Below, in pieces: positions 25,125 through 59,904 of a stretch of DNA of 64,000 nucleotides (the stretch's first letter is position 1; each line of letters begins with the position of its first letter). Both the position numbers and the translations under genes were made by a program. Location of the stretch: positions 395,095 to 459,094 of the forward strand of contig JBBDRA010000003.1 in assembly GCA_040905715.1 (NCBI GenBank), given 5' to 3'. The notes beneath the pieces were generated by a model, which was not told the DNA's origin, did not search any database, and was given only the letters and a program-made list of their open reading frames with translations. The stretch is from Minisyncoccota bacterium (lineage in GTDB: Bacteria > Patescibacteriota > Minisyncoccia > Phycocordibacterales > CSBR16-193).

Positions 25125-26564
25125 TTGAAAGCGTCATCCAGCATGGTAGGATACATACGACTTCATATGAGCACCACGGTAACTACACCCAAAAAAAGTA
25201 CGAGCGGACTGCGCGTCCCCCCGCAAAATATCGAGAGTGAACAAGCTTTGATCGGCTCTATTCTACTACGTCCGGAGGCCATGTACGAAGTGACCGATAT
25301 GGTAACCGCAAACTCTTTCTACGCCGATAAGCACCGCCTCATCTACGAGGCAATGATCGAGCTGTTTCAAAAACATGAACCGATCGACATGCTCTCGCTT
25401 TCAAACCGTCTCAAGGAAAAAGGTATACTTGACCAGATCGGTGGCAACGAGTATCTGACCGATCTCACAAACGCGGTCCCTTCCTCAGCCAACCTGAAAT
25501 ATTACGCCAAGTTAATACAGAAGAAATTCATGATGCGTGGTCTGATCGATGCTTCAGAGTTTATCGGTGCACTTGGGTACGATGACAACAGCGAACTCGA
25601 AGAGATCCTGGACAAGGCCGAAAAACGTATTTATGAACTCAGCAACGCTTCAGCAACGCACAAATTTGTTGAGATGAAGGACGAACTTACAGAGGCCTGG
25701 GAACGCCTCGACAAACTTCACAATTCAAAAGAAGATATTCGAGGTGTACCGACCGGCTTTCCAGCAATTGATAATACTATTGCCGGCCTACAGCCTTCTG
25801 ATCTTATTATTTTAGCCGCTCGTCCTTCCATGGGTAAGACCGCACTCGCACTTGATATCGCCCGCCAGGCTGCCGTTAACCATAATGTATCAGTTGGTAT
25901 CTTCTCACTCGAAATGAGCTCTCAGCAACTCGTAGACCGTATGCTCGCTGCCCAGGCTCTTGTTGATGCCTGGAAACTGCGTACCGGCAAACTCACCAGC
26001 GACGAGGATTTCAAATCGATTCAAGAATCCCTCGACAAGCTCTCTCGAGCACCTATCTATATTGACGACGAGGCAACCAACAACATCCTTAAGATGCGCT
26101 CTGTAGCCCGTCGGCTCAAGAGTGAAAAAGGGCTCGACCTTATCATCGTGGACTACCTGCAGCTTATGCAACCAATTGAATCACGAGGTAGCGACTCGAC
26201 CGTCCAGCAAATTACTGAGATCTCGCGAAGCTTGAAGCAGCTCGCACGTGAACTCGATGTGCCCGTTCTGGCTCTCTCTCAGCTTTCTCGTGCTGTTGAA
26301 CAGCGCGGCGGTCGACCGAAGCTATCTGACCTTCGTGATTCCGGTGCGATTGAGCAAGATGCCGATGTCGTGATGTTCATTCATCGTGAGAAGGGGCACG
26401 AGGCAGACGAGGACAACGACAACATTGCTGAAATCCTGATCGAAAAACACCGAAACGGTCCGACCGGTATCGCTCAGCTCCATTTCAATGACAAAAAATC
26501 TACCTTCCAGAGTATAGAGAAAGGTCAGTATGCCGGAGTCGAAGATGAATTCGCTAGCTTTTAA
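25125..26564 (+). CDS. dnaB: Replicative DNA helicase DnaB
   Basis: N-domain NIESEQALIGSILL; RecA core AARPSMGKTALALDIA (Walker A), IIVDYLQLM (Walker B), SQLSRAVEQR. The true start may be the internal Met at 25167. Confidence 0.9.
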   Translation: MKASSSMVGYIRLHMSTTVTTPKKSTSGLRVPPQNIESEQALIGSILLRPEAMYEVTDMVTANSFYADKHRLIYEAMIELFQKHEPIDMLSLSNRLKEKGILDQIGGNEYLTDLTNAVPSSANLKYYAKLIQKKFMMRGLIDASEFIGALGYDDNSELEEILDKAEKRIYELSNASATHKFVEMKDELTEAWERLDKLHNSKEDIRGVPTGFPAIDNTIAGLQPSDLIILAARPSMGKTALALDIARQAAVNHNVSVGIFSLEMSSQQLVDRMLAAQALVDAWKLRTGKLTSDEDFKSIQESLDKLSRAPIYIDDEATNNILKMRSVARRLKSEKGLDLIIVDYLQLMQPIESRGSDSTVQQITEISRSLKQLARELDVPVLALSQLSRAVEQRGGRPKLSDLRDSGAIEQDADVVMFIHREKGHEADEDNDNIAEILIEKHRNGPTGIAQLHFNDKKSTFQSIEKGQYAGVEDEFASF

Positions 26565-27240: not shown

Positions 27241-27321
27241 CTACTTGATAATAGGTATCCCCACACTACGGTCGAAACTCCGACCCGAAGGGGTGTCAAC
27301 GTGGCATGTTGACACACAAAT

Positions 27322-27349
27322 GTCCTAACCCAGGGTTAGGACATTTTTT
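27322..27349 (+). terminator. Intrinsic terminator after recR
   Basis: GTCCTAACCCAGGGTTAGGACATTTTTTAT. Confidence 0.6.
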
Positions 27350-27353
27350 ATAC

Positions 27354-27376
27354 TAAAAAATCCGCTTCCGCGGATC
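27354..27376 (-). terminator. Intrinsic terminator after rplU (minus strand)
   Basis: Plus strand shows AAAAAATCCGCTTCCGCGGAT; on the minus strand this reads as stem ATCCGC/GCGGAT followed by a U-run. Confidence 0.55.
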
Positions 27377-27404
27377 CTTGCGCCTAAAGCCAAAAGCCTA
27401 ATGC

Positions 27405-27869: not shown

Positions 27870-27898
27870 ATTCCCTCAAAAAACGCAACATCTCGCCT

Positions 27899-29023
27899 CT
27901 ATTCTTCCCGCTCTTGGGGTCTGTCCAGCTGCATCCCCTCAACTCCACTTGCCACACCGGTGATCTTAGTCACATCCTTATCTATTTTTACCAACTCTTT
28001 ATCAGCAGCATTATAATGGTTTACGGTTGTTGAGAGTGACTTACCGATCTTTTTAAAATACTCATCATACCGATTAATATGACGTGAAAGTTCACCAACA
28101 TTCTTCTGTATTTGCTCGGCATTCTTTTCTATTTTAAAAGCATTAAAGCCATAGAGCACGGACTGTAAATACGCATAGAACGTAGTCGGTGAGACAATGA
28201 TCACTTTTTTGTCGTTCATTGCATAATCAACGAGGTTGCGAGCATTAACATCCAGCCCGCCGACTCTATTGACCAAAAGATCGTAATAAATCCCCTCCGC
28301 CGGTATGAACATGAACGCAAACGGCAGTGTTCCCTCCTTGGGCTTTATATACTTTGCAGTCTCATCTATACGTTTCTTGAGATCGTCCTTGAACTGTTTA
28401 ATGAACTGGTCCCGGCGCATTTCATCTTTCTCATTCGATAACTGACTGTAGCTTTCAAGCGAAAATTTAGCGTCCACTGGAATAATACCGTCACGTGCGT
28501 GAATGACAGCGTCGACCGCGGTGCCGTCGTCAAATCGATACTGAAGCTCATATACATCCGGGGGCAATATATTAGAAAGAATAAGGTCAAGACTGGCCTC
28601 CCCAAAATTTCCCCGCTCCTTCTGGCTTTTGAGCGTTCGCTGCAGATCTTGCAACTGCTCCGCAACCGTGAATATCTGATTTGAGCGCTCTTTCATCTCC
28701 ACCTGACCTTTTGAAACTTCGCTCAACTGCTTATTTACCTGTTCATTGATCTGCTGTATGAGTCGCTGTGAGTCATGGAACTGATTACGCACCGTATCAC
28801 TCATCTGCTTCGAGGTCTCGCCGATCTTGCTGTCGACCACCTTAGAAAGCTCATTCATCTGCTGAAGCACCAGCTCTAGCCCTTCCCCTTTTGGCGCCTG
28901 CTGCTTAAGCTGACGAAGTATGAGCCAACCGACGAACCCCACGGCTGCCATAATAGCGACACCAACAAATACAATCAATGTAGTCTCTGACATAGTGTGG
29001 TAAAGTATATCATGTATAGACAT
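27899..29023 (-). CDS. rmuC: DNA recombination protein RmuC
   Basis: N-terminal TM, long coiled coil, C-terminal RmuC nuclease-like region (FAFMFIPAEGIYYDL...VIIVSPTTFYAYLQ). Confidence 0.75.
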   Translation of the reverse strand: MSIHDILYHTMSETTLIVFVGVAIMAAVGFVGWLILRQLKQQAPKGEGLELVLQQMNELSKVVDSKIGETSKQMSDTVRNQFHDSQRLIQQINEQVNKQLSEVSKGQVEMKERSNQIFTVAEQLQDLQRTLKSQKERGNFGEASLDLILSNILPPDVYELQYRFDDGTAVDAVIHARDGIIPVDAKFSLESYSQLSNEKDEMRRDQFIKQFKDDLKKRIDETAKYIKPKEGTLPFAFMFIPAEGIYYDLLVNRVGGLDVNARNLVDYAMNDKKVIIVSPTTFYAYLQSVLYGFNAFKIEKNAEQIQKNVGELSRHINRYDEYFKKIGKSLSTTVNHYNAADKELVKIDKDVTKITGVASGVEGMQLDRPQEREE

Positions 29024-33770: not shown

Positions 33771-35348
33771 ATGATCAAACCAAAATATTTTCTATACGCT
33801 CGCAAGAGCACTGAAGATGATGATAAGCAGGTGATGTCTATCGAGGCACAGTTGTTTGAGCTTCGTGAATTTGCGCGTAAAGAAAATCTTGAAATCCTAA
33901 CGGAGTTTCAAGAGTCGAAAAGCGCAAAGACTCCTGGACGTGAGCAGTTTGCGGAAATGATGACGCGCATTGAAGCGGGAGAAGCACAGGGTATTCTCTC
34001 GTGGCACCCAGACCGTTTAGCCAGAAATAGTATCGATGGAGGGCGCGTCATTTATGCTGTCGATACTTCCAAGATATCGTCTTTGCGCTTTCCGACATTT
34101 TGGTTTGAACCCACCCCGCAAGGGCTCTTTATGTTGCAAGTGGCGTTCGGACAATCGAAATATTATTCAGACAATCTGACGCAGAATGTGAAGCGCGGGA
34201 TGCGCCAAAAAGTTCGGCGAGGCGAGTGGCTCACCAAAGCTCCCTTTGGCTATGTGAACAATCCACGTACGAGAAATATCGAACCGCATCCAGTTCATAG
34301 CAAGATCATTGTGAAAGCGTTTGAGGAATACGCCAAAGGTGAGCATGGATTGGTTTCGCTCGCCGACTTTTTGGCGCTGCATGGAGTAACTACCCAGAAA
34401 GGAACGCCACTTGGCAAAGCTTCCATCAAACGAATGCTGACGAACCGAGCATATCTTGGATTTGTCCGTCATCATGGCGAATGGTTTGACGGAAGCTTTG
34501 CGCCAATTATTTCCCCGAAATTGTTTGAAGCCGTACAAAAAGTATTGTCGGCAAGAGAACGTCCTCGCAAGCGGAAAGTGAAGCATGACTTTCCCTTTGT
34601 TGGTATTTTTGAGTGCGGTGAGTGTGGGAGCATGTTCACGGCACAGTGGGCTACGGGCAAGTGCGGAGGAAAGTATCGGTATTATCGTTGTACCAAAAAG
34701 AAAGGGTCATGCTCCCAAGGATATGTGCGTGAGGACGTTCTCGCCGACCAAGTAAAGGAACAGCTTCAAACAATTTCGATTTGCGATGCATACACTGATT
34801 ATATGCTCGACAAAGTCGAGGAAATGGAGAAAACAGAAAATACTGCATCGCAAAGCGGTGTCCAAAATCTTTCCGATAGAATCAAAGCCAGTGAGGCACG
34901 CATGGATAAGCTAGTCGGTGCATATCTTGATGGCGACATTCCGCGAGACATCTACACCAAGAAAAAAGACGAGATCATGCGTGCCACCCTTGCTTTGAAA
35001 GAGGAAAAGAAAGATTTTGCACACCAAGGAAATAATTGGGTCGAACCCCTGCGGGAGTGGATTTTAGATACGAAACAAGCCACCTTTTTATCCTCATCCG
35101 ACAATTTCCCTGAAATTGCCTCCTTCGTCAAAAAAGTTGGAACGAACCCCTTGGTTCGTGACAAATCCGCGCGCTTCGGCGCGCCCGTCCCGTCCCAATT
35201 CGTCGCGAAGCGACGTGGTATTTTGGCTCCCCACATTCCGCGCCGTAGGCGCGAGTTGGCGCTTTGCGCCGAGGAAGTTTCTTTTTGTGACCCTACGGGG
35301 AATCGAACCCCGGTTTCATCCGTGAGAGGGATGTGTCCTAGCCGCTAG
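33771..35348 (+). CDS. Large serine recombinase (resolvase/invertase N-domain + recombinase domain + zinc ribbon)
   Basis: YARKSTEDDDKQVMSIEAQ carries the catalytic Ser; GILSWHPDRLARN; recombinase domain; C4 ribbon CGECGSMF...CTKKKGSC; coiled-coil tail. The last ~43 codons are encoded by IR-R. Confidence 0.85.
   Translation: MIKPKYFLYARKSTEDDDKQVMSIEAQLFELREFARKENLEILTEFQESKSAKTPGREQFAEMMTRIEAGEAQGILSWHPDRLARNSIDGGRVIYAVDTSKISSLRFPTFWFEPTPQGLFMLQVAFGQSKYYSDNLTQNVKRGMRQKVRRGEWLTKAPFGYVNNPRTRNIEPHPVHSKIIVKAFEEYAKGEHGLVSLADFLALHGVTTQKGTPLGKASIKRMLTNRAYLGFVRHHGEWFDGSFAPIISPKLFEAVQKVLSARERPRKRKVKHDFPFVGIFECGECGSMFTAQWATGKCGGKYRYYRCTKKKGSCSQGYVREDVLADQVKEQLQTISICDAYTDYMLDKVEEMEKTENTASQSGVQNLSDRIKASEARMDKLVGAYLDGDIPRDIYTKKKDEIMRATLALKEEKKDFAHQGNNWVEPLREWILDTKQATFLSSSDNFPEIASFVKKVGTNPLVRDKSARFGAPVPSQFVAKRRGILAPHIPRRRRELALCAEEVSFCDPTGNRTPVSSVRGMCPSR
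35160..35290. repeat. 131-bp inverted repeat, right copy (IR-R)
   Basis: See IR-L; its terminal TGA (35288-35290) is also the discriminator plus last two acceptor nucleotides of tRNA-Glu. Confidence 0.9.
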
Positions 35349-35359
35349 ACGATAGGGTC
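35288..35359 (-). tRNA. tRNA-Glu (anticodon CTC)
   Basis: Reverse complement GACCCTA-TC-GTCT-AGCGGCTA-GGAC-A-CATCC-CTCTCAC-GGATG-AAAC-CGGGG-TTCGATT-CCCCG-TAGGGTC-A: a 72-nt cloverleaf with Glu-type architecture; CCA not encoded. Confidence 0.85.
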
Positions 35360-45093: not shown

Positions 45094-45909
45094 CTAAAAC
45101 AACTGCTCATTATGGTCTACGATCCGCACCCAGCGAAGCTGGGTAACATTAAGGGGTGATCGAGCTCGAATATGCTGGAATGAGTCCGTTGGATCGACCC
45201 TCACCTCAACTACGCGGGCAAATTCAAGTGCGCGCGAGTCAGGAAGCGTTATTATATCATCCTCATAAACATCAATATCTTTTGGGATCTCAGCACGAAA
45301 AGACCCACCTCCCTCGCCTAGTAAGGTTACCGTTATATCTTCGCCCACAATGATACCGGGAGTTTCAACGCCGGTGGTTGAATACAATTCAGCAACTGCT
45401 GTATTTGCATACACCTCGTGAATACGCCCTAGTCCCACATCACCATAGATCACTCTATCCTCAACATCTATCCCTTGCTGACTACCCACATCAAGAACCA
45501 CCAGATCATGAGGTGATTGTGGCGGCGTCGTCAGAACAGAGGCAAGAATTCCACTGCTCGTCGTCGCCCGAGACCACATATCACGAAACAATGTATTCTC
45601 CTCTTCAAGGATCAGTCGCTGACCTAGCTCTACTTCAGCAAGCTTTATCTTCTCACGAAGCTCCTCGTTCGTGTGCTGTAGAGAACTTTTTGTTGTGAAG
45701 TAGCCAGTAAAAGACGATGAGCCATCCGAAAATAAGCCGCCTATACTCCATATAGGCGAAGCTACTGCATGAAACACTCCGGTGATACCACCCGGTGCGA
45801 ACATATACAAACCACCAACGAGAACGGTAACTATAATTACAATAGTTCCCGACAAACGACGGCGACGTCTCTGTTGTATTTTACGCTGTTGGAGGTAGTT
45901 CATCTTCAT
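45094..45909 (-). CDS. mreC: Rod-shape protein MreC
   Basis: TM anchor, coiled coil (LQHTNEELREKIKLAEVELGQ), beta-rich C-domain. Start trimmed to an internal Met to limit overlap with mreB. Confidence 0.7.
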   Translation of the reverse strand: MKMNYLQQRKIQQRRRRRLSGTIVIIVTVLVGGLYMFAPGGITGVFHAVASPIWSIGGLFSDGSSSFTGYFTTKSSLQHTNEELREKIKLAEVELGQRLILEEENTLFRDMWSRATTSSGILASVLTTPPQSPHDLVVLDVGSQQGIDVEDRVIYGDVGLGRIHEVYANTAVAELYSTTGVETPGIIVGEDITVTLLGEGGGSFRAEIPKDIDVYEDDIITLPDSRALEFARVVEVRVDPTDSFQHIRARSPLNVTQLRWVRIVDHNEQLF

Positions 45910-46957
45910 TAACAATAAGAACCTCTTCAAATGCTTCCATATTCTCCAAGATAACCCCTGTACCGCGCGCAACAGCTGTCAGTGGATCATCCGCGACATG
46001 AACAGGAACCTTAATATACTCCGTAAGCAATTGATCCAGTCCGGTCAGCAGCGCACCACCACCGACAAGATAGATACCTCGTTGCATCACGTCAGCCAAG
46101 ACTTCCGGCGGTGTTGCTTCCAGCACCTCACGCACCGATTCAACAAGTGTATCTATCGAGTGAGAGATAGCCTCGCGCACATCAGTATCAGTGATCACTA
46201 CTTCTCGAGGCAAGCCGGTAACAAGATCTCGACCTTTGACCGGCGCCTCAGTCGGCTCATCACTGCCAATAACCGTTCCGAGTTTCAACTTGATCAGCTC
46301 TGCAGTTTTCTCACCGACCAATATCTTAAACTCGCTTCGAATATACGACATAATATCGTTGTTGAGTTTGTCACCGGCAATGCGCAAGTTCTTAGCCTGA
46401 ACGACACCGTTGAGTGATATAACCGCGATATCAGACGTTCCGCCACCGATATCAATGATCATGCTTCCCATTGGATCACGCACCGGAAGCCGGACCCCGA
46501 TAGCTGCTGCCATAGGCTCTTCAACAATATGCACTTCACGTGCCCCGGCGTTCTTTGTCGCATCGCGCACGGCGCGTATCTCAACGTTGGTGATACCTGA
46601 GGGCACCCCAACCACAACGCGGGGACCGAGAAGCTTACGTGACTTCTCCTGAGCTTTATTAAGTAAATAGGCGATCATCTCCTCAGTGACCTCGAAATCA
46701 GAGATAACCCCGTCAATCAACGGATGGACCGCAGTGATGTGTGGCGGAGTTCGACCGAGCATTTGCTTGGCCTGCACACCGACTGCTACTACTTGATCTG
46801 TTTTTTGATTCACCGCAACGACCGACGGCTCATTGATCACAATTCCTTTACCACGAACGTACACCAGCGTATTTGCTGTTCCAAGATCGATGCCGATATC
46901 ATTCGACATCCATCGCTTCATACGATCAAGTGACGGAAATTCGGGTAAGAAATCCAT
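45881..46957 (-). CDS. mreB: Actin-like rod-shape protein MreB
   Basis: DIGIDLGTANTLVYV phosphate-1, DIGGGTSD, LVGGGALL motifs. The N-terminal ~15 aa of the ORF may not be translated. Confidence 0.9.
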   Translation of the reverse strand: MDFLPEFPSLDRMKRWMSNDIGIDLGTANTLVYVRGKGIVINEPSVVAVNQKTDQVVAVGVQAKQMLGRTPPHITAVHPLIDGVISDFEVTEEMIAYLLNKAQEKSRKLLGPRVVVGVPSGITNVEIRAVRDATKNAGAREVHIVEEPMAAAIGVRLPVRDPMGSMIIDIGGGTSDIAVISLNGVVQAKNLRIAGDKLNNDIMSYIRSEFKILVGEKTAELIKLKLGTVIGSDEPTEAPVKGRDLVTGLPREVVITDTDVREAISHSIDTLVESVREVLEATPPEVLADVMQRGIYLVGGGALLTGLDQLLTEYIKVPVHVADDPLTAVARGTGVILENMEAFEEVLIVNEDELPPTA

Positions 46958-51523: not shown

Positions 51524-52228
51524 CTAGAGGCGCAGGGCAATATACTCGAGCAGTAATTTTAATGATGATCCCGGATCATCAAGATACTGTTTATATTTAG
51601 TAATAATTTCCAGTCCGTCTCTGCTTCGCCGGGTAAGAGTGCCATCAGCCGCTCTCAGGCCGGCAAGTACGCGCTCGCAATTATCCACAAGACGTCTGGC
51701 GGCTGTCTTATCCTTTGCCTCGATAATAGGTTTGAGTAGCTCTATCCGCTCAGGCGCACTCGCGCGAAGAAATATTTCAGCGTCAACTCCCCTGCTTGTG
51801 TCTTGTCTCTGGTCACCCAGCTCAGCCAGCGAACCATCAGTCAATGAAATAAGAGCAAGCCTGGAACGGAGAGTCGGCAAAAGACCGTCAGCGTGAGGCA
51901 GGCAGAGAACGAATACGGTTGACTGGGCCGGATCCTCAAACGTTTTCAGTAATGCGTTTTGGGACGCCTGTGGTAAATGATCAGTTTCAATAACAATAAG
52001 TGTTCGCGCTGCAAGAACCGGCTTGCGCGCCTGCTCCTCTCGTATACGTCGCGCTGTCTCTATGGACAGTGGTGACTCGATGTAACGATAGAGATCAGGA
52101 TGACCCTGCGGCGGAACCTCGAATACTTGTTCTATCGCTTGCGCAATACTGTCTCGCACATGACCTCCTTCACCCACCACACAAATAGCGTGATGCTGTG
52201 AAAGAAGTTGAACAAGATTATCTATCAT
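51524..52228 (-). CDS. holB: DNA polymerase III delta'/delta-like clamp-loader subunit (short, degenerate P-loop)
   Basis: NALLKTFEDPAQSTVFVL...LLPTLRSR (sensor-1/SRC box) following a degenerate GEGGHVR loop. Confidence 0.5.
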   Translation of the reverse strand: MIDNLVQLLSQHHAICVVGEGGHVRDSIAQAIEQVFEVPPQGHPDLYRYIESPLSIETARRIREEQARKPVLAARTLIVIETDHLPQASQNALLKTFEDPAQSTVFVLCLPHADGLLPTLRSRLALISLTDGSLAELGDQRQDTSRGVDAEIFLRASAPERIELLKPIIEAKDKTAARRLVDNCERVLAGLRAADGTLTRRSRDGLEIITKYKQYLDDPGSSLKLLLEYIALRL

Positions 52229-52289: not shown

Positions 52290-53303
52290 TTATCTTTTAG
52301 CAGCGATCGTTCTCTTGTACATCTCTAGATGTTCCAGTGCAATACCGGTCCCTTTAACCACACACAGCATCGCCTCATCAGCGAGTGCACATTTTACACC
52401 GGTTCTTCTATACACCAACTCCGGTAGATTACGAAGCTGAGATGACCCGCCCGTCATGATGATCCCCCGGTCAATAATGTCAGAAGACAACTCCGGTGGA
52501 GTTTCCTGGAGCACATCTTTGATAGCGTTTATCATCTCCTTGAGTTCCTGATTGATCGCCTTGGTGATCTCGTTCGTCTTGATCTCGACCGAGCGTGGCA
52601 GACCGGAAACATAGTCACGACCTTTGATCGTGATCGAACTCTCTTCATCGAGCGGCACAGCTGAACCGATCTTGATCTTAATATCCTCAGCTGTTTTATC
52701 ACCAACCGCGAGATTGAACGTTTTTTTAATGTAATCAGTTATCGCCGCGTCTACACGATTTCCTGCACACTTCACAGATGTAGAAGCAACAATACCGCCC
52801 AGCGAGATGACCGCAACATCGGTCGTACCGCCACCAATGTCAACGATCATGTGTCCGGCCGCTTCGTGAATAGGAATCCCGGCCCCGATAGCGCTAAGGA
52901 TCGGCTCTTTGACCACGTATGCGTGCTTAGCACCTGCACGAACCGCCGCCTCAACGACGGCCCGGCGCTCGGTTGAGGTGACGCCCGCAGGCACCGACAC
53001 AAGCACCTCAGGTTTAAAGAATGTCCATTTACCGAGGGCTTTGCTTATGTAATAGCGAAGCATTGCCTCAGTCACTCGATAGTCAGCGATCACACCGTCC
53101 TTCATGGGCCGATACGCGATCACGTTATCCGGTGTGCGGCCGATCATGATCTTCGCCTCGTTGCCGACCGCCAAGATCTTATTGTCTTCCTGCGAGACGG
53201 CGACAACCGACGGCTCGTTGAGCACGATACCCTTACCAGGTACGTATACGAGCGTATTTGCTGTTCCAAGATCGATACCAAGTTTTCGAGTGAATAGTGC
53301 CAT
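52290..53303 (-). CDS. mbl: Second MreB/Mbl actin-like paralogue
   Basis: LGIDLGTANTLVYV, DIGGGTTDVAV and MTGGSSQL motifs; clearly paralogous to the protein at 45881-46957. Confidence 0.85.
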   Translation of the reverse strand: MALFTRKLGIDLGTANTLVYVPGKGIVLNEPSVVAVSQEDNKILAVGNEAKIMIGRTPDNVIAYRPMKDGVIADYRVTEAMLRYYISKALGKWTFFKPEVLVSVPAGVTSTERRAVVEAAVRAGAKHAYVVKEPILSAIGAGIPIHEAAGHMIVDIGGGTTDVAVISLGGIVASTSVKCAGNRVDAAITDYIKKTFNLAVGDKTAEDIKIKIGSAVPLDEESSITIKGRDYVSGLPRSVEIKTNEITKAINQELKEMINAIKDVLQETPPELSSDIIDRGIIMTGGSSQLRNLPELVYRRTGVKCALADEAMLCVVKGTGIALEHLEMYKRTIAAKR

Positions 53304-53540: not shown

Positions 53541-55064
53541 ATGACATCCCAATCTCAAGAATTTCTTACCCACCTCGGCTCTCTGATCCACCAGCTTCGT
53601 GAAGAGCGTGGGATCACTCAAAAAACCTTTGCTACTAAACTCGGTACGGCCCAAAGCGCAATTGCTCGCATTGAAGCCGGCCAGCAGAACATCTCAACTG
53701 AAATGCTTTCTCGCATTAGCGCCGTACTTGAGCGAGACTTGGTCAACCTCTCCGAGGGTTCTTTAAGTATCCAGATCAACGGAGGCAAGAAATTAAGCGG
53801 CACTATCCCTGTCAAAACCTCCAAGAATGCCGCCGTTGCCCTACTAGCGGCCTCCCTTTTGAATAAAAGCACCACCACTCTCAAAAGGGTTCCGAAGATC
53901 GAGGAGGTTCACCGACTCATTGAAGTGCTTAAAAGTATCGGTGTGAGTGTGGTCTGGAATAACGGCGATCTTACCATCACACCCCCCGAAAAACTCTCCC
54001 TGTCTGATATTGACGCAGTTGCTGCCGGGCGCACGCGCAGCATTATTCTCTTTATCGGCGCTCTCCTTCATCGGAGCAAACGTTTTCGTATCCCTCAGGC
54101 GGCCGGGTGCAAACTTGGCGCGCGCACGATCAAACCACACCTCTACGCTCTCGAAGAACTCGGTGTATCTATCACGACCAAACATGATAACTACACGATC
54201 GAACATAAAGGGCTCTCAAGCGGACGTATCGTGTTATATGAATCCGGTGACACAGTCACAGAGAACGTCCTCATGGCTGCTGCTCTAACGCCCGGCACGA
54301 CCACAATTCGCTACGCTTCTGCTAATTACCAGGTCCAGGATCTTTGCTACTTTCTTGAGACGCTTGGTGTAAAGATCGAGGGTATTGGCACCACAACTCT
54401 TGTGGTTCATGGCATAAAGGAGATCAACACACCGGTCGAATATCACCTTTCTGAAGATCCAATCGAAGCAATGTTCTTTATTGCGGCAGCCGCGGTCACC
54501 CGCTCCGCGATCAAGATAGAACGATGTCCGATCGATTTTCTCGAGCTTGAATTACTCACACTCGAAAAGATGGGCTTCAAGTATACCGCAAGCAAGCGCT
54601 ACAAAGCCGCCAACGGCAAGACAGACCTCGTTGATATTAAAACACGGCCTTCTCGACTGATAGCGCCGAGCGAAAAGATCCACCCACGCCCATACCCGGG
54701 GCTCAATATTGACAACCTTCCATTTTTTGCAGTTATTGCCACGCAGGCCGAAGGTCAGACGTTTATTCACGACTGGGTGTTCGAGAACAGAGCGATCTAT
54801 TACAAAGAGCTCGACAAACTCGGTGCTGACACGATCCTCGGCGACCAGCATCGCTTCTATGTGACCGGACCGACCAAGTTAAAGGCCCAAGAGATCGTCT
54901 GCCCCCCTGCCCTACGACCCGCGGCCATCATCTTAATCGCCATGCTTGCAGCTGAAGGAACATCAACGCTACGTAACATCTACAGCATCAACCGCGGATA
55001 CGAAGACCTTGTAAAGCGTTTGAACAGCCTCGGTGCTGACATTCACTTATTGCGGTCGGTGTAA
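53541..55064 (+). CDS. murA: UDP-GlcNAc 1-carboxyvinyltransferase with N-terminal XRE-type HTH fusion
   Basis: Residues ~10-65 (LREERGITQKTFATKLGTAQSAIARIEAGQQNISTEMLSRISAVL) form a Cro/C1 HTH. The remainder is MurA (LSIQINGGKKLSGTIPVKTSKNAAVALLAA...; active-site Cys in AAGCKLGARTIKPH). Confidence 0.85.
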   Translation: MTSQSQEFLTHLGSLIHQLREERGITQKTFATKLGTAQSAIARIEAGQQNISTEMLSRISAVLERDLVNLSEGSLSIQINGGKKLSGTIPVKTSKNAAVALLAASLLNKSTTTLKRVPKIEEVHRLIEVLKSIGVSVVWNNGDLTITPPEKLSLSDIDAVAAGRTRSIILFIGALLHRSKRFRIPQAAGCKLGARTIKPHLYALEELGVSITTKHDNYTIEHKGLSSGRIVLYESGDTVTENVLMAAALTPGTTTIRYASANYQVQDLCYFLETLGVKIEGIGTTTLVVHGIKEINTPVEYHLSEDPIEAMFFIAAAAVTRSAIKIERCPIDFLELELLTLEKMGFKYTASKRYKAANGKTDLVDIKTRPSRLIAPSEKIHPRPYPGLNIDNLPFFAVIATQAEGQTFIHDWVFENRAIYYKELDKLGADTILGDQHRFYVTGPTKLKAQEIVCPPALRPAAIILIAMLAAEGTSTLRNIYSINRGYEDLVKRLNSLGADIHLLRSV

Positions 55065-55094: not shown

Positions 55095-55949
55095 TTGAAA
55101 CGATGGGAGCTAACCTATACCGCCATGGTACATACAGACCGTATTCGTGAACAATTGCGTGAGAAGAGAGCATACGTGTGGACTGCTTTCAGCTTTCTCA
55201 TCTTTTTTCTGCTACTCGGTCTTGTTACTGAGACCGGATATCGGATCTTCTCGACATTAGGACTCACAGACGCCGGAACCGTGAAGATCGTTCTGCCGGA
55301 CACAAATATGCAGGTGTACCATAACGATACGTATGTCGATCAGAGCTCAGAGCAAGGCGAGATCATTACGCTCAACAACCTTCCTACCGGCGAGCACAGT
55401 ATTATTGTTGCACGACAAGGATCATATCCTTGGGCAAAAAAATTCAAACTCACGGCCGACGAAACACGTGTTCTTGAGCCGTTTCTGATACGACACAAAC
55501 TCCCCCAAAGAACAGTTGATTCAAGCGCCGATCATTTCGCTGAGCTCGTGAGCGAAGTACAACGAACACAAGTACCGACAAAAGAATCACCGCTTTCTTC
55601 CCCGGATCAACCGGTTTTAGTCTGGGTAGAGAACAATGTGATCCAAGCGCAGTGGGAAGGTGACCTAGATAACGCACCTCACTCATTTTGCGTAGACTCA
55701 GAACAGTGCCTCAAGAGCATTTCTGCACTCCCTTCTGACGAACCTATAAAAAACATCACTTTTTACCATAACCGAAGTGACGTAATACTATTCTCTTCCG
55801 GAAACGGTATCTACGCGCTTGAATTAGTGGCCAGTGGCGCACCAAGCTTTCAGCCGATCTTCGAAGGAACTGACCCGAATTTCATAAAGACCGGAACCAC
55901 TACGATCGCCGTCTTGGACGATGGTCAACTTTTTGAGGTTGGACTCTAA
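55095..55949 (+). CDS. Membrane-anchored protein with PEGA-like beta domain
   Basis: TM helix (FSFLIFFLLLGLV), then VKIVLPDTNMQVYHNDTYV...GEHSIIVARQGSYPWAKKFKL resembling a PEGA domain. Confidence 0.35.
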   Translation: MKRWELTYTAMVHTDRIREQLREKRAYVWTAFSFLIFFLLLGLVTETGYRIFSTLGLTDAGTVKIVLPDTNMQVYHNDTYVDQSSEQGEIITLNNLPTGEHSIIVARQGSYPWAKKFKLTADETRVLEPFLIRHKLPQRTVDSSADHFAELVSEVQRTQVPTKESPLSSPDQPVLVWVENNVIQAQWEGDLDNAPHSFCVDSEQCLKSISALPSDEPIKNITFYHNRSDVILFSSGNGIYALELVASGAPSFQPIFEGTDPNFIKTGTTTIAVLDDGQLFEVGL

Positions 55950-56041: not shown

Positions 56042-57961
56042 ATGTATATCATTGACGTTATCCCCATAGCAAAAGGAATGGGCAAAGATCATTTGTCATA
56101 TTTTACCTCACAAGAGGTCCTGCCGGGCAAACTGGTCACCGTACCCGTACGCAAACGCACGCTTTCCGCGCTTGTCGTGAACTGTGAAAGCGCACAGAAG
56201 CGCAAGACCGAATTGAAATCCTCCGGCTTTGCACTCAAGAAGATAGCCAAGCTTCACAAGACATCCTTTTTAGACGAAGGACTGATCACCGCTGCTCGAG
56301 ATACAGCAACATATTTTGCCACAACGCCCGGCCGAGTACTTCAGACGATCATTCCAAGCGCGATCCTAAACGATCTATCTTCGATAAAAAAACCCAAGAA
56401 TTCAACACGGAATACGAAAAAGAACCTTGAGCAGACGAAAACAACGCACGAAAAGTTCCTGCTCCAAACACAGCCAAGTGAACGCCTGGCACACTACAAA
56501 AGCCTGATCCGAGAAGACTTCGCCAAGGATCAGTCTGTTTTTTTCTGTCTCCCGACGATCGAAGATATCAACAAAGCAAAAGCAACCTTAGAGAAAGGTA
56601 TCGATACCTACACTTATGTTTTGCACAGCAACTTAAGTAAAAACAAACTCCAAGAGATCTGGAATGAGATCACGCAACAGAACCATCCGGTACTGATCAT
56701 TGCCACACCGCTTTTCCTATCGATCCCCCGAAATGATCTCGGCACGATCATAGTCGAACGTGAAGCTTCCCAAAGTTATAAGCAACAGTCCGCGCCATTT
56801 CTTGATATGCGCACTTACGCTGAGTTCTTATCACGCGCACGCGGTGTTCGTTTTGTTCTCGGCGATACACTTCTTCGAGTTGAGACACTCAAACGATACC
56901 ATGACCTTGAGTTTACTGAATACATGCCGCTCAAATACCGATCACTGACCTCTGCACAAACATCACTAGTAGATATGCGCGAAAGCGTCGCTAACGAGAA
57001 TGATGAATTCCCGATCATCAGCCCGGAACTCAAGGAACTTCTTTCAAACGCTCTCGAGAAAAGTGAATTAACCTTCTTGTTTGCAAGTCGCCGGGGACTT
57101 GCTCCAATAACTGTCTGCGGAGACTGTGGTGCCCTGGTTCGTTGTAAGTACTGCGAGACTCCTGTTGTGCTTCACGAAATAAGTGAGAATACTGAACACA
57201 ATGTATTTCAATGTCACAAATGTGGCACAACTCGCTCGGCCCATGAAACCTGTAAAAGCTGTGGTAGTTGGCGACTCAACGCTCTCGGTGTCGGCGTCGA
57301 AAGAGTTATTGAATCGATCACAAAGTCATTTCCTGATGTCACCATCTTTCGAATAGACAAAGACAACACACGCACCCATAAACAGGCCCTCAGCGTCATT
57401 GAAAAATTTTACCAAACACCCGGCAGCGTCCTGATCGGCACTGAAATGGGTATCCTCTATCTTTCTGAGGAGATCGAGAATATTGGCGTTGTCTCCCTCG
57501 ACAGCCTGTTTTCGGTACCTGACTTTCGCATTAACGAAAAGATCATCAATATTCTCATTACGCTTCGCCTTCTCGCGCAGAAACAGTTTCTGGTCCAAAG
57601 CCGAAACGCTGAACAACCTATTCTTCAGCACGGTCTTTCCGGAAACCTGATCGACTTTTATCGACAAGAGGTGACGGTCCGCAAACAATTTTCCTATCCA
57701 CCTTTCACTGTTCTTGTTAAGATCACTCGTCGTGGAACCCAAGACAAGGTTGAAGCAGATATGAAGTGGCTTCAAGATACGGTTGGATCTGATCGCATAA
57801 CCATGTATGCCGGATCCCCACCGATCGTAAAAGGAAAATTTGTAATGAACGCTCTTATTAAAGTTCCACGTGAGCAGTGGGTGGACGAACCCCTCCTTAC
57901 GTTACTTAATTCCCTTCCACCTCAATTCATTATTCAGATCGATCCGCAAAATATTCTTTGA
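56042..57961 (+). CDS. priA: PriA-like primosomal protein with degenerate helicase ATPase motifs
   Basis: N-terminal 3'-DNA-binding-like domain; FLLQTQPSERLAHYKSL aligns where PriA has FLLxGVTGSGKTEVY; IIVEREASQSYKQQ aligns where PriA has VIVDEEHDSSYKQ; PriA-type Cys cluster CGDCG...CKYCE...CHKCG...CKSCGS. Confidence 0.65.
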   Translation: MYIIDVIPIAKGMGKDHLSYFTSQEVLPGKLVTVPVRKRTLSALVVNCESAQKRKTELKSSGFALKKIAKLHKTSFLDEGLITAARDTATYFATTPGRVLQTIIPSAILNDLSSIKKPKNSTRNTKKNLEQTKTTHEKFLLQTQPSERLAHYKSLIREDFAKDQSVFFCLPTIEDINKAKATLEKGIDTYTYVLHSNLSKNKLQEIWNEITQQNHPVLIIATPLFLSIPRNDLGTIIVEREASQSYKQQSAPFLDMRTYAEFLSRARGVRFVLGDTLLRVETLKRYHDLEFTEYMPLKYRSLTSAQTSLVDMRESVANENDEFPIISPELKELLSNALEKSELTFLFASRRGLAPITVCGDCGALVRCKYCETPVVLHEISENTEHNVFQCHKCGTTRSAHETCKSCGSWRLNALGVGVERVIESITKSFPDVTIFRIDKDNTRTHKQALSVIEKFYQTPGSVLIGTEMGILYLSEEIENIGVVSLDSLFSVPDFRINEKIINILITLRLLAQKQFLVQSRNAEQPILQHGLSGNLIDFYRQEVTVRKQFSYPPFTVLVKITRRGTQDKVEADMKWLQDTVGSDRITMYAGSPPIVKGKFVMNALIKVPREQWVDEPLLTLLNSLPPQFIIQIDPQNIL

Positions 57962-58045
57962 TCACGTTTGGCACGTAGACAAACCATTTGTAACAATGCT
58001 ATAACATGGTGGACTGTTCTTCACCATCAACCATGGAGATCACTG

Positions 58046-58306
58046 ATGCGACGACTCATCGCTACCGCTCACACTCCTGTGCACATTGTACGCACACGCG
58101 TACTGCACCTGAGAATACTCTATAGACGCGGCCGCGGGAGGTTCAACGGACACGATTTCACCCCTTGTCCCAAGTGCGGAAACGACACGCTCGCGAAAGC
58201 CAACTTTGATCTTAAAAAGAGCGACATCGCTGGTCCCGGCATCTGGCCAGGCGAATACCACGGTCAATGCATACATCCGCACTGTGATCATCGTGAATCT
58301 GTGTGA
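58046..58306 (+). CDS. Hypothetical small Cys/His-rich (zinc-ribbon-like) protein
   Basis: GGAGA RBS 6 nt before the internal Met; CPKCG...CIHPHCDH. The ORF track starts at 57968. Confidence 0.3.
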   Translation: MRRLIATAHTPVHIVRTRVLHLRILYRRGRGRFNGHDFTPCPKCGNDTLAKANFDLKKSDIAGPGIWPGEYHGQCIHPHCDHRESV

Positions 58307-58401
58307 CCTTCCGGTTTGATCTCCATAACAACCTTCTGCCCTCTCCGTAAAACGGTCCAGGGCTTTTTCTTTTCTCACTATTCCGATACAATTCACTGAT
58401 C

Positions 58402-58968
58402 ATGCCTATATCAAAGATCGTTCAGGAAGGGGAAGGCACTATACTGCGCAAACGAGCCAAGGACATTAAAGAATCCGAGATCGGCTCTGAGACTCTTTCG
58501 AATATCATCCAAAAAATGAAAGACGTTCTCGCCCTCCAAGACGACGGGGTGGCAATAGCAGCGCCACAGATCGGCGAATCACTGAGAGTATTCGTGGTAT
58601 CCGGTAAAGTCTATGATCAACTTGAGAGATCTGATCAACCAGAACTCGACAGAATCGATGAGTCCCGCAAAAAAAGAAGCCCCGACAAAACATTTATTAA
58701 TCCCGAGATCATTAAAACCTCAAAGGAAACCCTTCCTCTTGACGAAGGATGCCTGTCGGTTCGTCACTACTACGGGCAAGTACTTCGCCACAGTAAAGTT
58801 ACTGTCAGAGCACTCGATGAAGAGGGCAACGCATTCACAGAAGGGCGTTCCGGTCTTCTCGCGCAGATCTTTCAGCACGAGACCGATCATCTCAACGGTG
58901 TTCTATTTATAGATAAAGCAAAGAAAGTTGATTATCGAGCGCCGAAGGAGAAAAATGAAACAAAATAA
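58402..58968 (+). CDS. def: Peptide deformylase
   Basis: Motif I GVAIAAPQIG, motif II EGCLS, motif III HETDHLNG. Confidence 0.85.
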   Translation: MPISKIVQEGEGTILRKRAKDIKESEIGSETLSNIIQKMKDVLALQDDGVAIAAPQIGESLRVFVVSGKVYDQLERSDQPELDRIDESRKKRSPDKTFINPEIIKTSKETLPLDEGCLSVRHYYGQVLRHSKVTVRALDEEGNAFTEGRSGLLAQIFQHETDHLNGVLFIDKAKKVDYRAPKEKNETK

Positions 58969-59046
58969 ATGGAAGGATCTGAAAATAAAATATTAAAGTG
59001 TAAGATCCTTGTAAAATAATAGATCACCTTTAGATACTTTTCATAC

Positions 59047-59904
59047 ATGAATACAAACATAAAAATGGTTTTTTTCGGCACCGACGATTTTTCAATACTT
59101 GTTCTCGAAGAACTAGCTCGTCGCGATATCCTTCCTGACCTTGTTGTCACCGCGCCGGACACACCACAAGGTCGACAGCTCAAGGTTCTGCCACCCTCGG
59201 TAAAGGTCTGGGCACTCGCTCACAACATACCGTTCCTTCAACCGTACTCACTAAACGAGGCATTCGGCAACGAACTCAAACGTCAGGAATGGGATGTTTT
59301 CCTGGTAGCTTCATACGGCAAAATAATACCCAAGGAGATACTGGATATTCCAACCAATGGATCATTAAATATTCACCCTTCCCTGCTTCCGAAGCTTCGC
59401 GGGGCTTCACCGATCCAGAGTGCTATTCTTACTGAAGAAGAAACCGGAGTAACACTCATGCTTATGGACGAAAAAATGGATCACGGCCCCATAATTGCTC
59501 AGAAAAAAGTTTCTATCGACAGCTGGCCACCTAAGGCAAATATCCTAGAAGCCATTCTTGCGCGTGAAGGAGGTGCGCTATTTGCTGATAATCTTCATCC
59601 GTGGATCAAAGGAGAGAAAAAGTCAGAAGAACAAGACCACTCACAAGCCACGTTCACTAAAAAAATAACAAAAGACCAAGCCGAGCTTGATCTATCAGAC
59701 GATCCTGAGAAAAACTTTCGCAAGATCCAGGCGTTTCATGAATGGCCACGTGCGTACTTTTTTACGACCAAAGACAACAAGCAGTTTCGGGTGATCGTTA
59801 CCGATGCAAAACTTCAGAACGACCAACTGGTCATTAAACGAGTTATCCCTGAGGGCAAGAAAGAAATGGATTTTGAATCGTTCGAACGAGGATATCGAGA
59901 ATAA
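59047..59904 (+). CDS. fmt: Methionyl-tRNA formyltransferase
   Basis: MVFFGTDDFS; formyl-transferase core NIHPSLLPKLRGASPI; C-terminal tRNA-binding domain. Confidence 0.85.
   Translation: MNTNIKMVFFGTDDFSILVLEELARRDILPDLVVTAPDTPQGRQLKVLPPSVKVWALAHNIPFLQPYSLNEAFGNELKRQEWDVFLVASYGKIIPKEILDIPTNGSLNIHPSLLPKLRGASPIQSAILTEEETGVTLMLMDEKMDHGPIIAQKKVSIDSWPPKANILEAILAREGGALFADNLHPWIKGEKKSEEQDHSQATFTKKITKDQAELDLSDDPEKNFRKIQAFHEWPRAYFFTTKDNKQFRVIVTDAKLQNDQLVIKRVIPEGKKEMDFESFERGYRE

What the first reader, a model, noticed from the sequence alone, without database searches (positions are those of the whole stretch)
56042..57961. PriA homologue whose Walker A and Walker B helicase motifs appear to be replaced
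The protein has the PriA N-terminal 3'-DNA-binding region and the diagnostic four-Cys-pair zinc cluster (CGDCG…CKYCE…CHKCG…CKSCGS), and overall collinearity with PriA. Where PriA has GVTGSGKTEVY the sequence reads TQPSERLAHYKSL (no GK[TS]). Where PriA has VDEEHD it reads VEREAS. If the alignment is right, this PriA cannot hydrolyse ATP and would act only as a scaffold or fork-recognition factor. That is an unusual state for the replication-restart helicase, and it sits next to a stand-alone small zinc-ribbon ORF.
Basis: partly seen in the sequence, partly recalled or inferred. Interest (0 to 1): 0.5.

Follow-up and report, generated by a model that had tools for sequence, protein, structure and literature searches.

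The report
Motor-less PriA replication-restart protein in Parcubacteria
The gene encodes a real, well-conserved PriA replication-restart protein whose ATP-driven helicase motor has been replaced throughout a large group of tiny uncultured bacteria, a state already shown by experiment in Deinococcus, so it is a useful new example and not a new kind of protein.

Summary
ORF 56042-57961 (+, 639 aa) is a PriA homologue with a 3'-DNA-binding domain, eight zinc-binding cysteines and a C-terminal domain.

It has no working ATPase site:
- Walker A GVTGSGKT is QTQPSERL.
- Walker B DEEH is EREA.
- Motif III is lost.
- Motif VI (QxxGRxGR) is removed by a 5-residue deletion.
- The winged-helix domain and the stretch before the P-loop are absent.

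This is not an error or decay. About 430 non-redundant homologues (28-79% identity) from Parcubacteria/Paceibacteria MAGs share the same replacement. The Walker A lysine is arginine in about 99% of them, usually preceded by an acidic loop. Clade-specific patterns found relatives in 455 GTDB species genomes. The former helicase lobes are the best-conserved part of the protein.

It is most likely an ATP-independent fork-recognition and helicase-loading scaffold. It resembles E. coli priA300 (K230R) and the D. radiodurans PriA pseudohelicase (Lopper 2015). An actinobacterial PriA I checked also lacks the motifs, so loss of the motor recurs.

The neighbouring zinc-ribbon ORF has poor codon usage and is absent from 80 related loci. 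It is not a conserved partner of PriA.

Verdict: a new member of a known kind, of moderate interest.

The parts
56042..57961 (+). priA, a motor-less (pseudohelicase) PriA of 639 aa
   Evidence: ORF. TIGR00595 245.8 bits. PDB PriA E=1.7e-37. AF2 model pLDDT 89.5 with best PDB match E. coli PriA 8fak_H, TM 0.81.
56042..56356 (+). 3'-DNA-binding domain (aa 1-105). The pocket Tyr (Y20) is unchanged in all 120 closest homologues, the Lys (K59) is K or R, and E. coli D17 is S/T here.
   Evidence: Pfam PF17764, E=7e-8. Column counts.
56357..56458 (+). Short Lys/Thr/Asn-rich linker (aa 106-139) in place of the winged-helix domain and the stretch before the P-loop (E. coli ~109-215 deleted)
   Evidence: MAFFT and hhalign gaps. 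Low pLDDT of 55-76 and no domain in the model. Least conserved region, 0.29.
56465..56500 (+). Replaced Walker A (aa 142-153, QTQPSERLAHYK). Clade signature is Q-x4-[DE]-R-x3-Y-[KR], with an acidic loop and Arg in place of the catalytic Lys.
   Evidence: The model has strand 138-142 and a helix from P145.
56564..56566 (+). D175 in the former motif Ia (PTIED). It covaries by charge with R240.
   Evidence: MI-APC z=9.3. R/K240 is paired with D/E175 in 267/273 sequences. E/D240 is never paired with D/E.
56756..56767 (+). Replaced Walker B (aa 239-242, EREA). Clade pattern is [ED][RK]E[NS].
57110..57277 (+). Cysteine-rich region (aa 357-412) with four Cys pairs (two predicted Zn sites), all unchanged
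57548..57574 (+). Site of former motif VI (aa 503-511). QxxGRxGR is lost through a 5-residue deletion.
57722..57958 (+). C-terminal domain (aa 561-639)
   Evidence: hhalign runs to the end of canonical PriA. Model strands and helices 556-633.
57968..58306 (+). Small four-Cys ORF (112 aa from TTG, 86 aa from ATG 58046) in a 440-bp spacer. Doubtful gene, not a conserved PriA partner.
   Evidence: No tblastn hit in 80 loci. Codon score -0.13 to -0.17 against 0.37+-0.11 for genes, and GC 0.52-0.54 against 0.46. Only L082 has a collinear CPxC...CxxC ORF, BLASTP E=3.9.
58402..59904 (+). def and fmt, the conserved downstream neighbours of priA
   Evidence: Pfam. Present after priA in about 60 of 80 loci. 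The same linkage occurs in Listeria and Monoglobus.
25125..26564 (+). DnaB replicative helicase with an intact Walker A (ARPSMGKT), the presumed client of PriA
   Evidence: Regex scan. Pfam DnaB_C 338 bits and DnaB N-domain.

Best explanation
This is the organism's PriA orthologue, turned into a pseudohelicase. It keeps the PriA architecture: 3'-end-binding domain, two RecA-like lobes, a zinc-binding cysteine-rich region and a C-terminal domain. It has lost the nucleotide-binding and hydrolysis site and the winged-helix domain.

It most likely binds abandoned replication forks or D-loops. The 3'BD pocket would hold the leading-strand 3' end, and the lobes, CRR and CTD would hold the lagging-strand template. 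It would then serve as an ATP-independent platform on which DnaB is reloaded, without unwinding any DNA itself. This is what E. coli PriA K230R/K230A does in the PriA-PriB pathway, and what has been proposed for D. radiodurans PriA.

The former ATP site is rebuilt, not decayed. An acidic stretch sits at the start of helix alpha-1, followed by an Arg present in about 99% of members. A new covarying ion pair links the former Walker B (R/K240) with the former motif Ia (D/E175).

Shown here: the sequence state, its conservation and the fold. Inferred: absence of ATPase activity, fork binding and DnaB loading.
For: Family assignment and fold:
-.
- AF2 model with pLDDT 89.5 and pTM 0.88.
- Foldseek top nine PDB hits are all PriA. 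Best is 8fak_H at TM 0.81, ahead of the apo delta-WH protein 6dcr at 0.72 and the ADP form 4nl4 at 0.70.

Loss of the motor:
- Motifs I, Ib, II, III, V and VI are altered or deleted.
- The region upstream of the P-loop is deleted.

Selection rather than decay:
- There are 335 non-redundant sequences from the first two searches and the loci, plus 99 more from the third search.
- Arg replaces K230 in 334/335 and in 96/99.
- 315/335 fit the signature, with loop net charge -1 to -4.
- The lobes are the most conserved regions, 0.68-0.69 against 0.62 overall.
- R/K240 and D/E175 covary, z=9.3.
- All ORFs are full length, 602-680 aa.

Extent:
- Clade-specific patterns found relatives in 455 GTDB species genomes.
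- All 149 best 50%-identity cluster representatives have the replaced Walker A motif.
- Median pairwise identity among them is 36.5%.
- Bit scores drop sharply from >=254 for the clade to <=99 for canonical PriAs.

Retained PriA-specific DNA-binding features:
- Y20 and K59 of the 3'BD pocket.
- The YK after Walker B, and the P252/D255/R257 loop.
- RRG, DFR and YPPF.

Context:
- The murA-priA-def-fmt neighbourhood is conserved.
- priA-def or priA-fmt linkage also occurs in Firmicutes.
- An intact DnaB lies in the same window.

Precedent:
- K230R abolishes ATPase and helicase activity, yet priA300 cells are near wild type.
- PriA K230A supports DnaB loading in vitro (PMC5778457, PMC10175261).
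- D. radiodurans PriA has the same K-to-R change. It has no ATPase or helicase activity, binds forks and binds DnaB (PMC4504706).
Against: - There is no biochemical or genetic data for any member of this clade.
- I could not scan a whole genome, so a second, canonical PriA or another compensating SF2 helicase elsewhere is not excluded. None lies in the 64-kb window.
- The partner proteins (PriB, DnaT, DnaD, DciA, DnaC/I) are unknown.
- The winged-helix domain contacts the parental duplex in E. coli and is missing here, so fork recognition may differ.
- The better fit to the fork-bound conformer is a model property, not an observation.
Confidence: 0.75

Rival explanations
1. The protein is still an ATPase or helicase that uses a non-canonical site. 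For example, Arg148 and acidic residues might coordinate Mg-nucleotide in a different geometry.
For: The former site is highly conserved rather than random. R148 and E241 are near-invariant and the lobes are the most conserved regions. A second, weaker nucleotide site has been suggested for E. coli PriA (PMC5778457).
Against: - The glycine-rich anion hole is gone and the loop carries net charge -1 to -4.
- The Ser/Thr Mg ligand is replaced by a hydrophobic residue (F/L/Y/I).
- The motif VI arginine fingers are deleted, and the region before the P-loop is deleted.
- K230R alone kills E. coli PriA ATPase, and the K-to-R Deinococcus protein is inactive (PMC5778457, PMC4504706).
Confidence: 0.05
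2. The protein keeps the PriA fold but has taken on a role other than replication restart. Examples are a general branched-DNA binding or protection factor, or a structural partner of other machinery. Restart would then be handled differently or be absent.
For: - The WH domain is lost and the CRR docking surface is altered. E. coli T482 is an invariant Trp here and H483 is R/K.
- No PriB, DnaT or DnaD lies in the window.
- Very small genomes often repurpose proteins.
Against: - The features specific to fork recognition are the ones retained: the 3'BD pocket Tyr/Lys, the CRR, the CTD and the loop after Walker B.
- It occupies the ancestral priA-def-fmt position.
- Helicase-dead PriA is known to be sufficient for restart in E. 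coli and is proposed to be so in Deinococcus (PMC5778457, PMC4504706).
Confidence: 0.15
3. The gene is a decaying pseudogene or an assembly or sequencing artefact.
For: Pfam recognises no helicase domain. The TIGR00595 score is barely above its cutoff.
Against: - Intact full-length ORFs occur in about 430 non-redundant homologues down to 28% identity, all with the same replaced motifs.
- Codon usage is normal, 0.30.
- There is compensatory covariation in the rebuilt site.
- The AF2 model is confident.
Confidence: 0.01

Closest known systems
Deinococcus radiodurans / Deinococcus-Thermus PriA pseudohelicase (Lopper, Boone & Morrow 2015, PMC4504706)
   Same: It is a PriA orthologue with poor matches to Walker A and B. 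The catalytic Lys of GKT is replaced by Arg. It is retained under selection across a whole lineage. By experiment it lacks ATPase and helicase activity but binds ssDNA and fork DNA and its own DnaB, which is the working model adopted here.
   Different: The lineage is different (Parcubacteria/Paceibacteria, NCBI phylum Minisyncoccota). Here motifs III and VI, the pre-P-loop region and the winged-helix domain are also gone, and the P-loop is replaced by a conserved acidic stretch. I could not obtain a Deinococcus-Thermus sequence, so common descent versus convergence is untested. Nothing has been tested biochemically for this clade.
E. coli PriA K230R (priA300) and K230A/D variants
   Same: They carry the same Lys-to-Arg change at the same position. 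They lack ATPase, helicase and translocase activity yet still assemble primosomes. In-vitro DnaB reloading assays are routinely run with PriA K230A (PMC5778457, PMC10175261).
   Different: These are engineered single substitutions in an otherwise intact motor that works with PriB, DnaT and DnaC. Helicase-dead PriA fails in the PriA-PriC pathway. The natural protein here has a thoroughly rebuilt site, no WH domain and unknown partners.
Canonical PriA (TIGR00595 / PRK05580; structures 4NL4, 6DCR, 6DGD, 8FAK)
   Same: It shares the 3'BD, bilobed core, CRR with eight Cys, CTD, the YK, RRG, DFR and PP[FW] motifs, and the priA-def/fmt neighbourhood. TM-score is up to 0.81.
   Different: Identity is only 21-24%. 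All ATPase motifs are replaced, the WH domain is absent, and the protein is about 100-180 aa shorter. The TIGR00595 score is 246 bits against about 590 for canonical PriAs.
Actinobacterial PriA (NCBIfam PRK14873 group, e.g. Nonomuraea gerenzanensis, L088)
   Same: It is also a PriA family member without recognisable motifs I, II, III or VI in my alignment.
   Different: It is only 18% identical to the window protein, and the replacement residues are unrelated (ALPGARGWAT, WDDGDD). The window protein scores only 75 bits on the best PRK14873 model, so the two are separate lineages.

Membership tests
PriA (primosomal protein N', TIGR00595/PRK05580) | N-terminal 3'-DNA-binding domain | tested here: met
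   Pfam PF17764 at residues 23-105, E=7e-8, 32.6 bits against cutoff 22.7. Pocket Tyr unchanged and Lys is K/R in the 120 closest homologues.
PriA (primosomal protein N', TIGR00595/PRK05580) | Curated whole-protein HMM score above cutoff | tested here: met
   TIGR00595 scores 245.8 bits against cutoff 230.35, a narrow margin. Canonical PriAs score about 590, and the divergent clade member P0357 scores 180, below the cutoff.
PriA (primosomal protein N', TIGR00595/PRK05580) | Two RecA-like lobes with an inserted cysteine-rich region binding two Zn (four Cys pairs), followed by a C-terminal domain | tested here: met
   All eight Cys are invariant columns. AF2 model matches PriA structures at TM 0.66-0.81. 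hhalign covers 612 columns. Zinc binding itself was not tested.
PriA (primosomal protein N', TIGR00595/PRK05580) | SF2 helicase motifs I (GxxGSGKT), II (DEEH), III (SAT) and VI (QxxGRxGR) | tested here: not met
   The motifs read QTQPSERL, EREA and GDTLLR, and motif VI carries a 5-residue deletion. The same state holds across the clade.
PriA (primosomal protein N', TIGR00595/PRK05580) | Winged-helix domain between the 3'BD and the helicase core | tested here: not met
   E. coli ~109-215 has no counterpart and is replaced by a 34-residue low-confidence linker.
PriA (primosomal protein N', TIGR00595/PRK05580) | 3'-5' helicase and DNA-dependent ATPase activity; fork-specific DNA binding; primosome assembly | not testable with these tools
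   Requires purified protein or genetics.
PriA pseudohelicase (Deinococcus-Thermus type, PMC4504706) | Walker A catalytic Lys replaced by Arg, and a degenerate Walker B | tested here: met
   R148 aligns with K230 in MAFFT and hhalign, and is Arg in 334/335 and 96/99 clade members. Walker B is [ED][RK]E[NS].
PriA pseudohelicase (Deinococcus-Thermus type, PMC4504706) | No ATP hydrolysis or unwinding in vitro, with fork binding and DnaB interaction retained | not testable with these tools
   Inferred only.
PriA pseudohelicase (Deinococcus-Thermus type, PMC4504706) | Common descent with the Deinococcus-Thermus PriA clade | not tested
   No Deinococcus-Thermus PriA sequence could be obtained. None appeared in the plasmid collection hits and the paper has no held supplement.
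Actinobacterial PriA (PRK14873) | Score above the curated cutoff of a PRK14873 model | tested here: not met
   The best is NF011453 at 75.5 bits against cutoff 812. Identity to Nonomuraea PriA is 18%.

The most novel reading that the evidence does not exclude
Loss of the PriA motor is a recurrent evolutionary outcome and not a Deinococcus oddity. It would have arisen independently at least three times: in Deinococcus-Thermus, in Actinomycetota and in the very large Parcubacteria/Paceibacteria radiation. In the Parcubacteria version, the acidic stretch that replaces the P-loop would act as a built-in phosphate mimic. It caps helix alpha-1 and, together with the new R/K240-D/E175 ion pair, holds the two lobes and the CRR permanently in the fork-bound 'ssDNA pore' conformation. 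PriA would then be a constitutive, ATP-free clamp that recruits DnaB directly, without PriB, DnaT or a winged-helix contact.
Probability: 0.25. Interest if true: 0.6.

Novelty: new member of a known kind. Interest (0 to 1): 0.4.

Why it matters
[quoted passage not shown] These results show that an entire major radiation of ultra-small bacteria carries a PriA that cannot be a motor. Clade-specific patterns found relatives in at least 455 species-level genomes, and at least 150 clusters at 50% identity carry the replaced motifs. At least one actinobacterial PriA is also motor-less.

This supports the idea that the essential, ancestral job of PriA is structure-specific fork recognition and helicase loading, with unwinding as an accessory function. 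The clade offers a natural, minimal (639 aa, no WH domain) version for structural and biochemical study.

There is also a practical point. Divergent members fall below the TIGR00595 cutoff and are annotated 'hypothetical'. Others are named as a helicase, an activity they very probably lack.

Tried and rejected
1. Frameshift or sequencing error. Rejected, because the replaced motifs are shared by all homologues examined.

2. A P-loop or DExH elsewhere in the protein. None found.

3. The zinc-ribbon ORF as a PriA partner.
- tblastn found no hit in 80 loci.
- BLASTP against the positional counterpart in L082 gave E=3.9.
- Codon usage is outside the gene range.
- Other long priA-def spacers carry unrelated ORFs.
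- There is no match in phage genomes and no Rfam family in the spacer.
- Judged not conserved and doubtful.

4. Finding the edge of the clade. The top 150 of the representative search were all still clade members. A second homologue search from the divergent member P0220 did reach the gap to canonical PriA. It gives no taxonomy beyond Parcubacteria-type names.

5. A covariation partner in lobe 2 for the acidic loop, as a test of the phosphate-mimic idea. There was no strong signal (z no higher than about 5). The only strong pair involving the site was R240-D175, within lobe 1. A first charge tally was spoiled by alignment gaps and was redone by regex.

6. Foldseek against AFDB50 for taxonomic spread. 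The library was not available.

7. Obtaining a Deinococcus-Thermus PriA for direct comparison. None is in the plasmid collection and the paper has no held supplement.

8. Another SF2 helicase in the window. None among 65 ORFs of at least 90 aa by P-loop scan, and none among 36 proteins scanned with Pfam. Only DnaB was found.

9. Literature on a CPR/Patescibacteria or actinobacterial PriA pseudohelicase. None found.
Full report
**What is at the locus.** The window carries a single uninterrupted ORF at 56042-57961 on the + strand (639 aa, ATG). The frame is closed just upstream, so the short N-terminal region is not a mis-called start.

The gene order is:
- murA, with an N-terminal HTH
- a 284-aa membrane-anchored unknown
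- priA
- a 440-bp spacer
- def
- fmt

An identical protein is in the public database, named 'primosomal protein N'' from a Candidatus Paceibacterota MAG. NCBI now places that name under phylum Minisyncoccota.

**Checking the observation.**
- Pfam recognises only the PriA 3'-DNA-binding domain (residues 23-105, E=7e-8). No helicase domain passes threshold.
- NCBIfam TIGR00595 (priA) scores 245.8 bits against a cutoff of 230.35. That alignment starts only at residue 152, just after the place where the P-loop should be.
- phmmer against PDB finds K. pneumoniae and E. coli PriA (E=1.7e-37 and 4e-35). It aligns GTIIVEREASQSYKQQ with GVIVIDEEHDSSYKQQ.
- MAFFT with E. coli PriA places QTQPSERL under GVTGSGKT and EREA under DEEH.
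- A more careful alignment with six canonical PriAs gives the same columns. The six are from Escherichia, Listeria, Bacteroides, Fusobacterium, Rhizobium and Monoglobus.
- A profile-profile comparison of 70 clade members against those six gives probability 100, E=4e-66, 612 aligned columns and 22% identity. It puts R148 under K230 and the clade consensus erEn under DEEH.
- hhalign differs from MAFFT in one respect only. It treats the P-loop as deleted outright, where MAFFT treats it as substituted. Either way there is no P-loop.

**The loss goes well beyond Walker A and B**.

| Element | Canonical PriA | This protein / clade |
|---|---|---|
| Motif Ia | PEIGLT | PTIED |
| Motif Ib | conserved Arg present | Arg lost |
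| Motif III | GSATP | GDTLLR |
| Motif V | GTQMLAKGHHFP | GTEMGILYL |
| Motif VI | QVAGRAGR | removed by a 5-residue deletion |
| Winged-helix domain and pre-P-loop region (LNxEQxxA) | E. coli ~109-215 | 34-residue Lys/Thr/Asn-rich linker |

The retained features are the 3'BD, the YK after Walker B, the following loop, RRG (motif IV), the eight cysteines, DFR, YPPF and the C-terminal domain. In the 3'BD, the pocket Tyr is unchanged in all 120 closest homologues and the Lys is K or R. In the loop after Walker B, P252 and D255 are invariant and R257 nearly so.

**It is not an error or a decaying gene.**
- None of the 120 closest database homologues (44-100% identity) has a P-loop or DExH at the right place.
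- Three clade-specific peptide patterns matched 523 stretches in the GTDB species-representative genomes, and 455 of them encode a relative.
- The best 80 all carry the replaced motifs. All but two or three are labelled as Parcubacteria/Paceibacteria-type MAGs or simply as uncultured bacteria. One record is labelled Nitrospira.
- An exhaustive search of 1.84 billion cluster representatives returned 150 best hits. The 149 that were new (36-47% identity to the query) all have the replaced Walker A motif, with R at the K230 column in 147/149.
- Their median pairwise identity is 36.5% (minimum 27.7%). That is similar to the divergence among canonical PriAs of different phyla, which are 29-35% identical to E. 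coli.
- A further search started from a divergent member followed the clade down to 28% identity (at least 254 bits). It then met a sharp gap before canonical PriAs, which score 99 bits or less and carry GVTGSGKT, DEEQ/DESH and GRAGR.

**The former ATP site is rebuilt under selection.** These counts come from 335 non-redundant sequences.
- The K230 position is Arg in 334.
- The preceding residue is Asp or Glu in 321.
- The third Walker B residue is Glu in 327.
- 315 fit Q-x4-[DENS]-R-x3-[YFWH]-[KR], and the five loop residues carry net charge -1 to -4 in 311 of those 315.
- The two former helicase lobes are the best-conserved parts of the protein, 0.68-0.69 against 0.62 overall and 0.29 for the linker.
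- A mutual-information scan found that R/K240 (second Walker B position) covaries with D/E175 (former motif Ia) at z=9.3, among the ten strongest pairs in the protein.
- R/K240 goes with D/E175 in 267 of 273 sequences. When 240 is acidic, 175 is never acidic. This points to a new salt bridge.

**Fold.** AlphaFold2 with the clade alignment gives a confident model (pLDDT 89.5, pTM 0.88).
- Strand beta-1 is at 138-142 and helix alpha-1 starts at P145. The acidic residues and R148 therefore sit in the first helical turn, where a P-loop would hold phosphate.
- Foldseek against PDB returns only PriA chains at the top. The best is E. coli PriA from the PriA/PriB/fork cryo-EM complex (8fak_H, TM 0.81).
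- That is ahead of the apo winged-helix-deletion crystal form (6dcr, 0.72) and the ADP form (4nl4, 0.70).
- The 8FAK model also lacks the WH domain (PMC10175261). The better fit therefore reflects the CRR and lobe-2 arrangement that forms the lagging-strand ssDNA pore. This is a property of a prediction and only a hint.

**How it most likely works.** Established knowledge gives a clear template.
- E. coli PriA K230R (priA300) has no ATPase, helicase or translocase activity, yet cells are near wild type.
- The helicase is needed for the PriA-PriC route but not for PriA-PriB.
- In-vitro DnaB reloading is routinely done with PriA K230A (PMC5778457, PMC10175261).
- D. radiodurans PriA carries the same Lys-to-Arg change. 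It neither hydrolyses ATP nor unwinds DNA, but binds ssDNA and forks and binds DnaB (PMC4504706).

By analogy, I propose that this protein recognises abandoned forks or D-loops through the 3'BD, lobes, CRR and CTD. It would then act as an ATP-independent platform for reloading DnaB. An intact DnaB (Walker A ARPSMGKT) lies at 25125-26564 in the same window.

The sequence state, its conservation and the fold are shown here. The absence of ATPase activity, fork binding and DnaB loading are inferred.

**Rivals.**
- A non-canonical ATPase is unlikely. The acidic loop, the hydrophobic residue at the Ser/Thr position and the deleted arginine fingers all argue against it.
- A new role unrelated to restart cannot be excluded. 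The WH domain is lost, the CRR docking surface is altered (E. coli T482 is an invariant Trp here), and the partners are unknown.
- Pseudogene or artefact is refuted by the conservation described above.

**The neighbouring zinc-ribbon ORF** (57968-58306).
- It lies in a 440-bp spacer that most relatives lack. In most loci def starts about 20-70 bp after priA, and in L012 (79% identical PriA) the gap is 85 bp.
- It has no tblastn hit in 80 related loci.
- Its codon-usage score (-0.13 to -0.17) is outside the range of real genes in the window (0.37 +- 0.11, minimum 0.013). Its GC is higher than that of neighbouring genes (0.52-0.54 against 0.46).
- Only the closest relative that has a spacer (L082, 78% identical PriA) has a positional counterpart. 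That ORF has a similar M[KR]RL start and a CPxC...CxxC layout, but the similarity is not significant (E=3.9).
- At best it is a fast-evolving, lineage-restricted small gene. It is not a conserved PriA partner.
- A conserved TTCC(G/T)ATACAAT element just upstream of def suggests that def has its own promoter.

**Other helicases.** A P-loop scan of all 65 ORFs of at least 90 aa in the window found only DnaB. Pfam scans of 36 window proteins found no SF2 helicase. The rest of the genome could not be examined.

**Comparison with what is known, and novelty.**
- The kind of protein, a PriA pseudohelicase, is known from Deinococcus-Thermus. The 2017-18 review treats Deinococcus as the sole exception to conserved helicase activity (PMC5778457).
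- I found no paper describing this state in CPR/Patescibacteria.
- In passing, I found that an actinobacterial PriA also lacks motifs I, II, III and VI. It is from Nonomuraea and scores 1033 bits on NF011452 against a cutoff of 980.
- Its replacement residues are unrelated and it is only 18% identical to the window protein. I found no paper on that either.
- Loss of the motor therefore appears to recur.
- I file the window gene as a new member of a known kind. It is a natural, minimal, motor-less PriA that characterises a very large radiation.

**Limits.**
- There is no biochemistry for this clade.
- No whole-genome scan was possible.
- No Deinococcus-Thermus sequence was available for a direct test of convergence.
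- No model coordinates were available to inspect contacts.

Noticed in passing
L088:1940-4168 (Nonomuraea gerenzanensis, record NZ_LT559118.1): An actinobacterial PriA also lacks helicase motifs I, II, III and VI (ALPGARGWAT, WDDGDD, GGYART, no GRAGR). It scores 1033 bits on NF011452/PRK14873.1-2 against a cutoff of 980. It is only 18% identical to the window PriA, so it looks like a separate lineage of motor-less PriA. No paper on this was found.
   Followed up: partly
window 53541-55064 (+): MurA carries an N-terminal XRE-type helix-turn-helix (Pfam HTH_3 at 16-67, EPSP_synthase at 80-494; 507 aa). The same fusion is called in the relative L082 (3471-4994). A DNA-binding domain fused to a cell-wall enzyme is unusual.
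   Followed up: no
window 58340-58401; L012 ~2775-2815; L082 ~8350-8394: A conserved TTCC(G/T)ATACAAT element preceded by a T-rich run lies just upstream of def in three related genomes. It is probably the def promoter. The spacer holding the zinc-ribbon ORF is inserted between the priA stop codon and this element.
   Followed up: partly
window 33771-35348 (+) and 35288-35359 (-): A large serine recombinase (Resolvase, Recombinase and Zn_ribbon_recom domains; 525 aa) has its 3' end overlapping a tRNA gene on the opposite strand. This may mark the edge of an integrated element.
   Followed up: no
window 1-14000: GC skew is positive up to about 6 kb and negative for the remaining 50 kb, whatever the gene orientation. 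The cumulative skew peaks near 6 kb, which could mark a replication terminus or origin boundary. The murA-priA-def-fmt genes lie on the G-poor strand.
   Followed up: no
window 55095-55949 (+): This 284-aa protein has one N-terminal transmembrane segment and no Pfam or NCBIfam match. It sits directly upstream of priA here and in at least 22 of 80 related loci (24-45% identity).
   Followed up: partly
window 25125-29023: A cluster of DNA-maintenance genes: DnaB (25125-26564), RecR (26611-27240) and RmuC (27899-29023, - strand). A short holB-like clamp-loader subunit lies at 51524-52228 (-). An MreB gene lies at 45881-46957 (Pfam), and a second ORF at 52290-53303 is probably MreB too, judged only from the matching gene in L082.
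   Followed up: no
Clade members P0024, P0054, P0055, P0087, P0098, P0281, P0318, P0357: Many members of this PriA clade are annotated 'hypothetical protein'. The divergent member P0357 scores 180 bits on TIGR00595 against a cutoff of 230, so the family is partly missed by current annotation models.
   Followed up: partly
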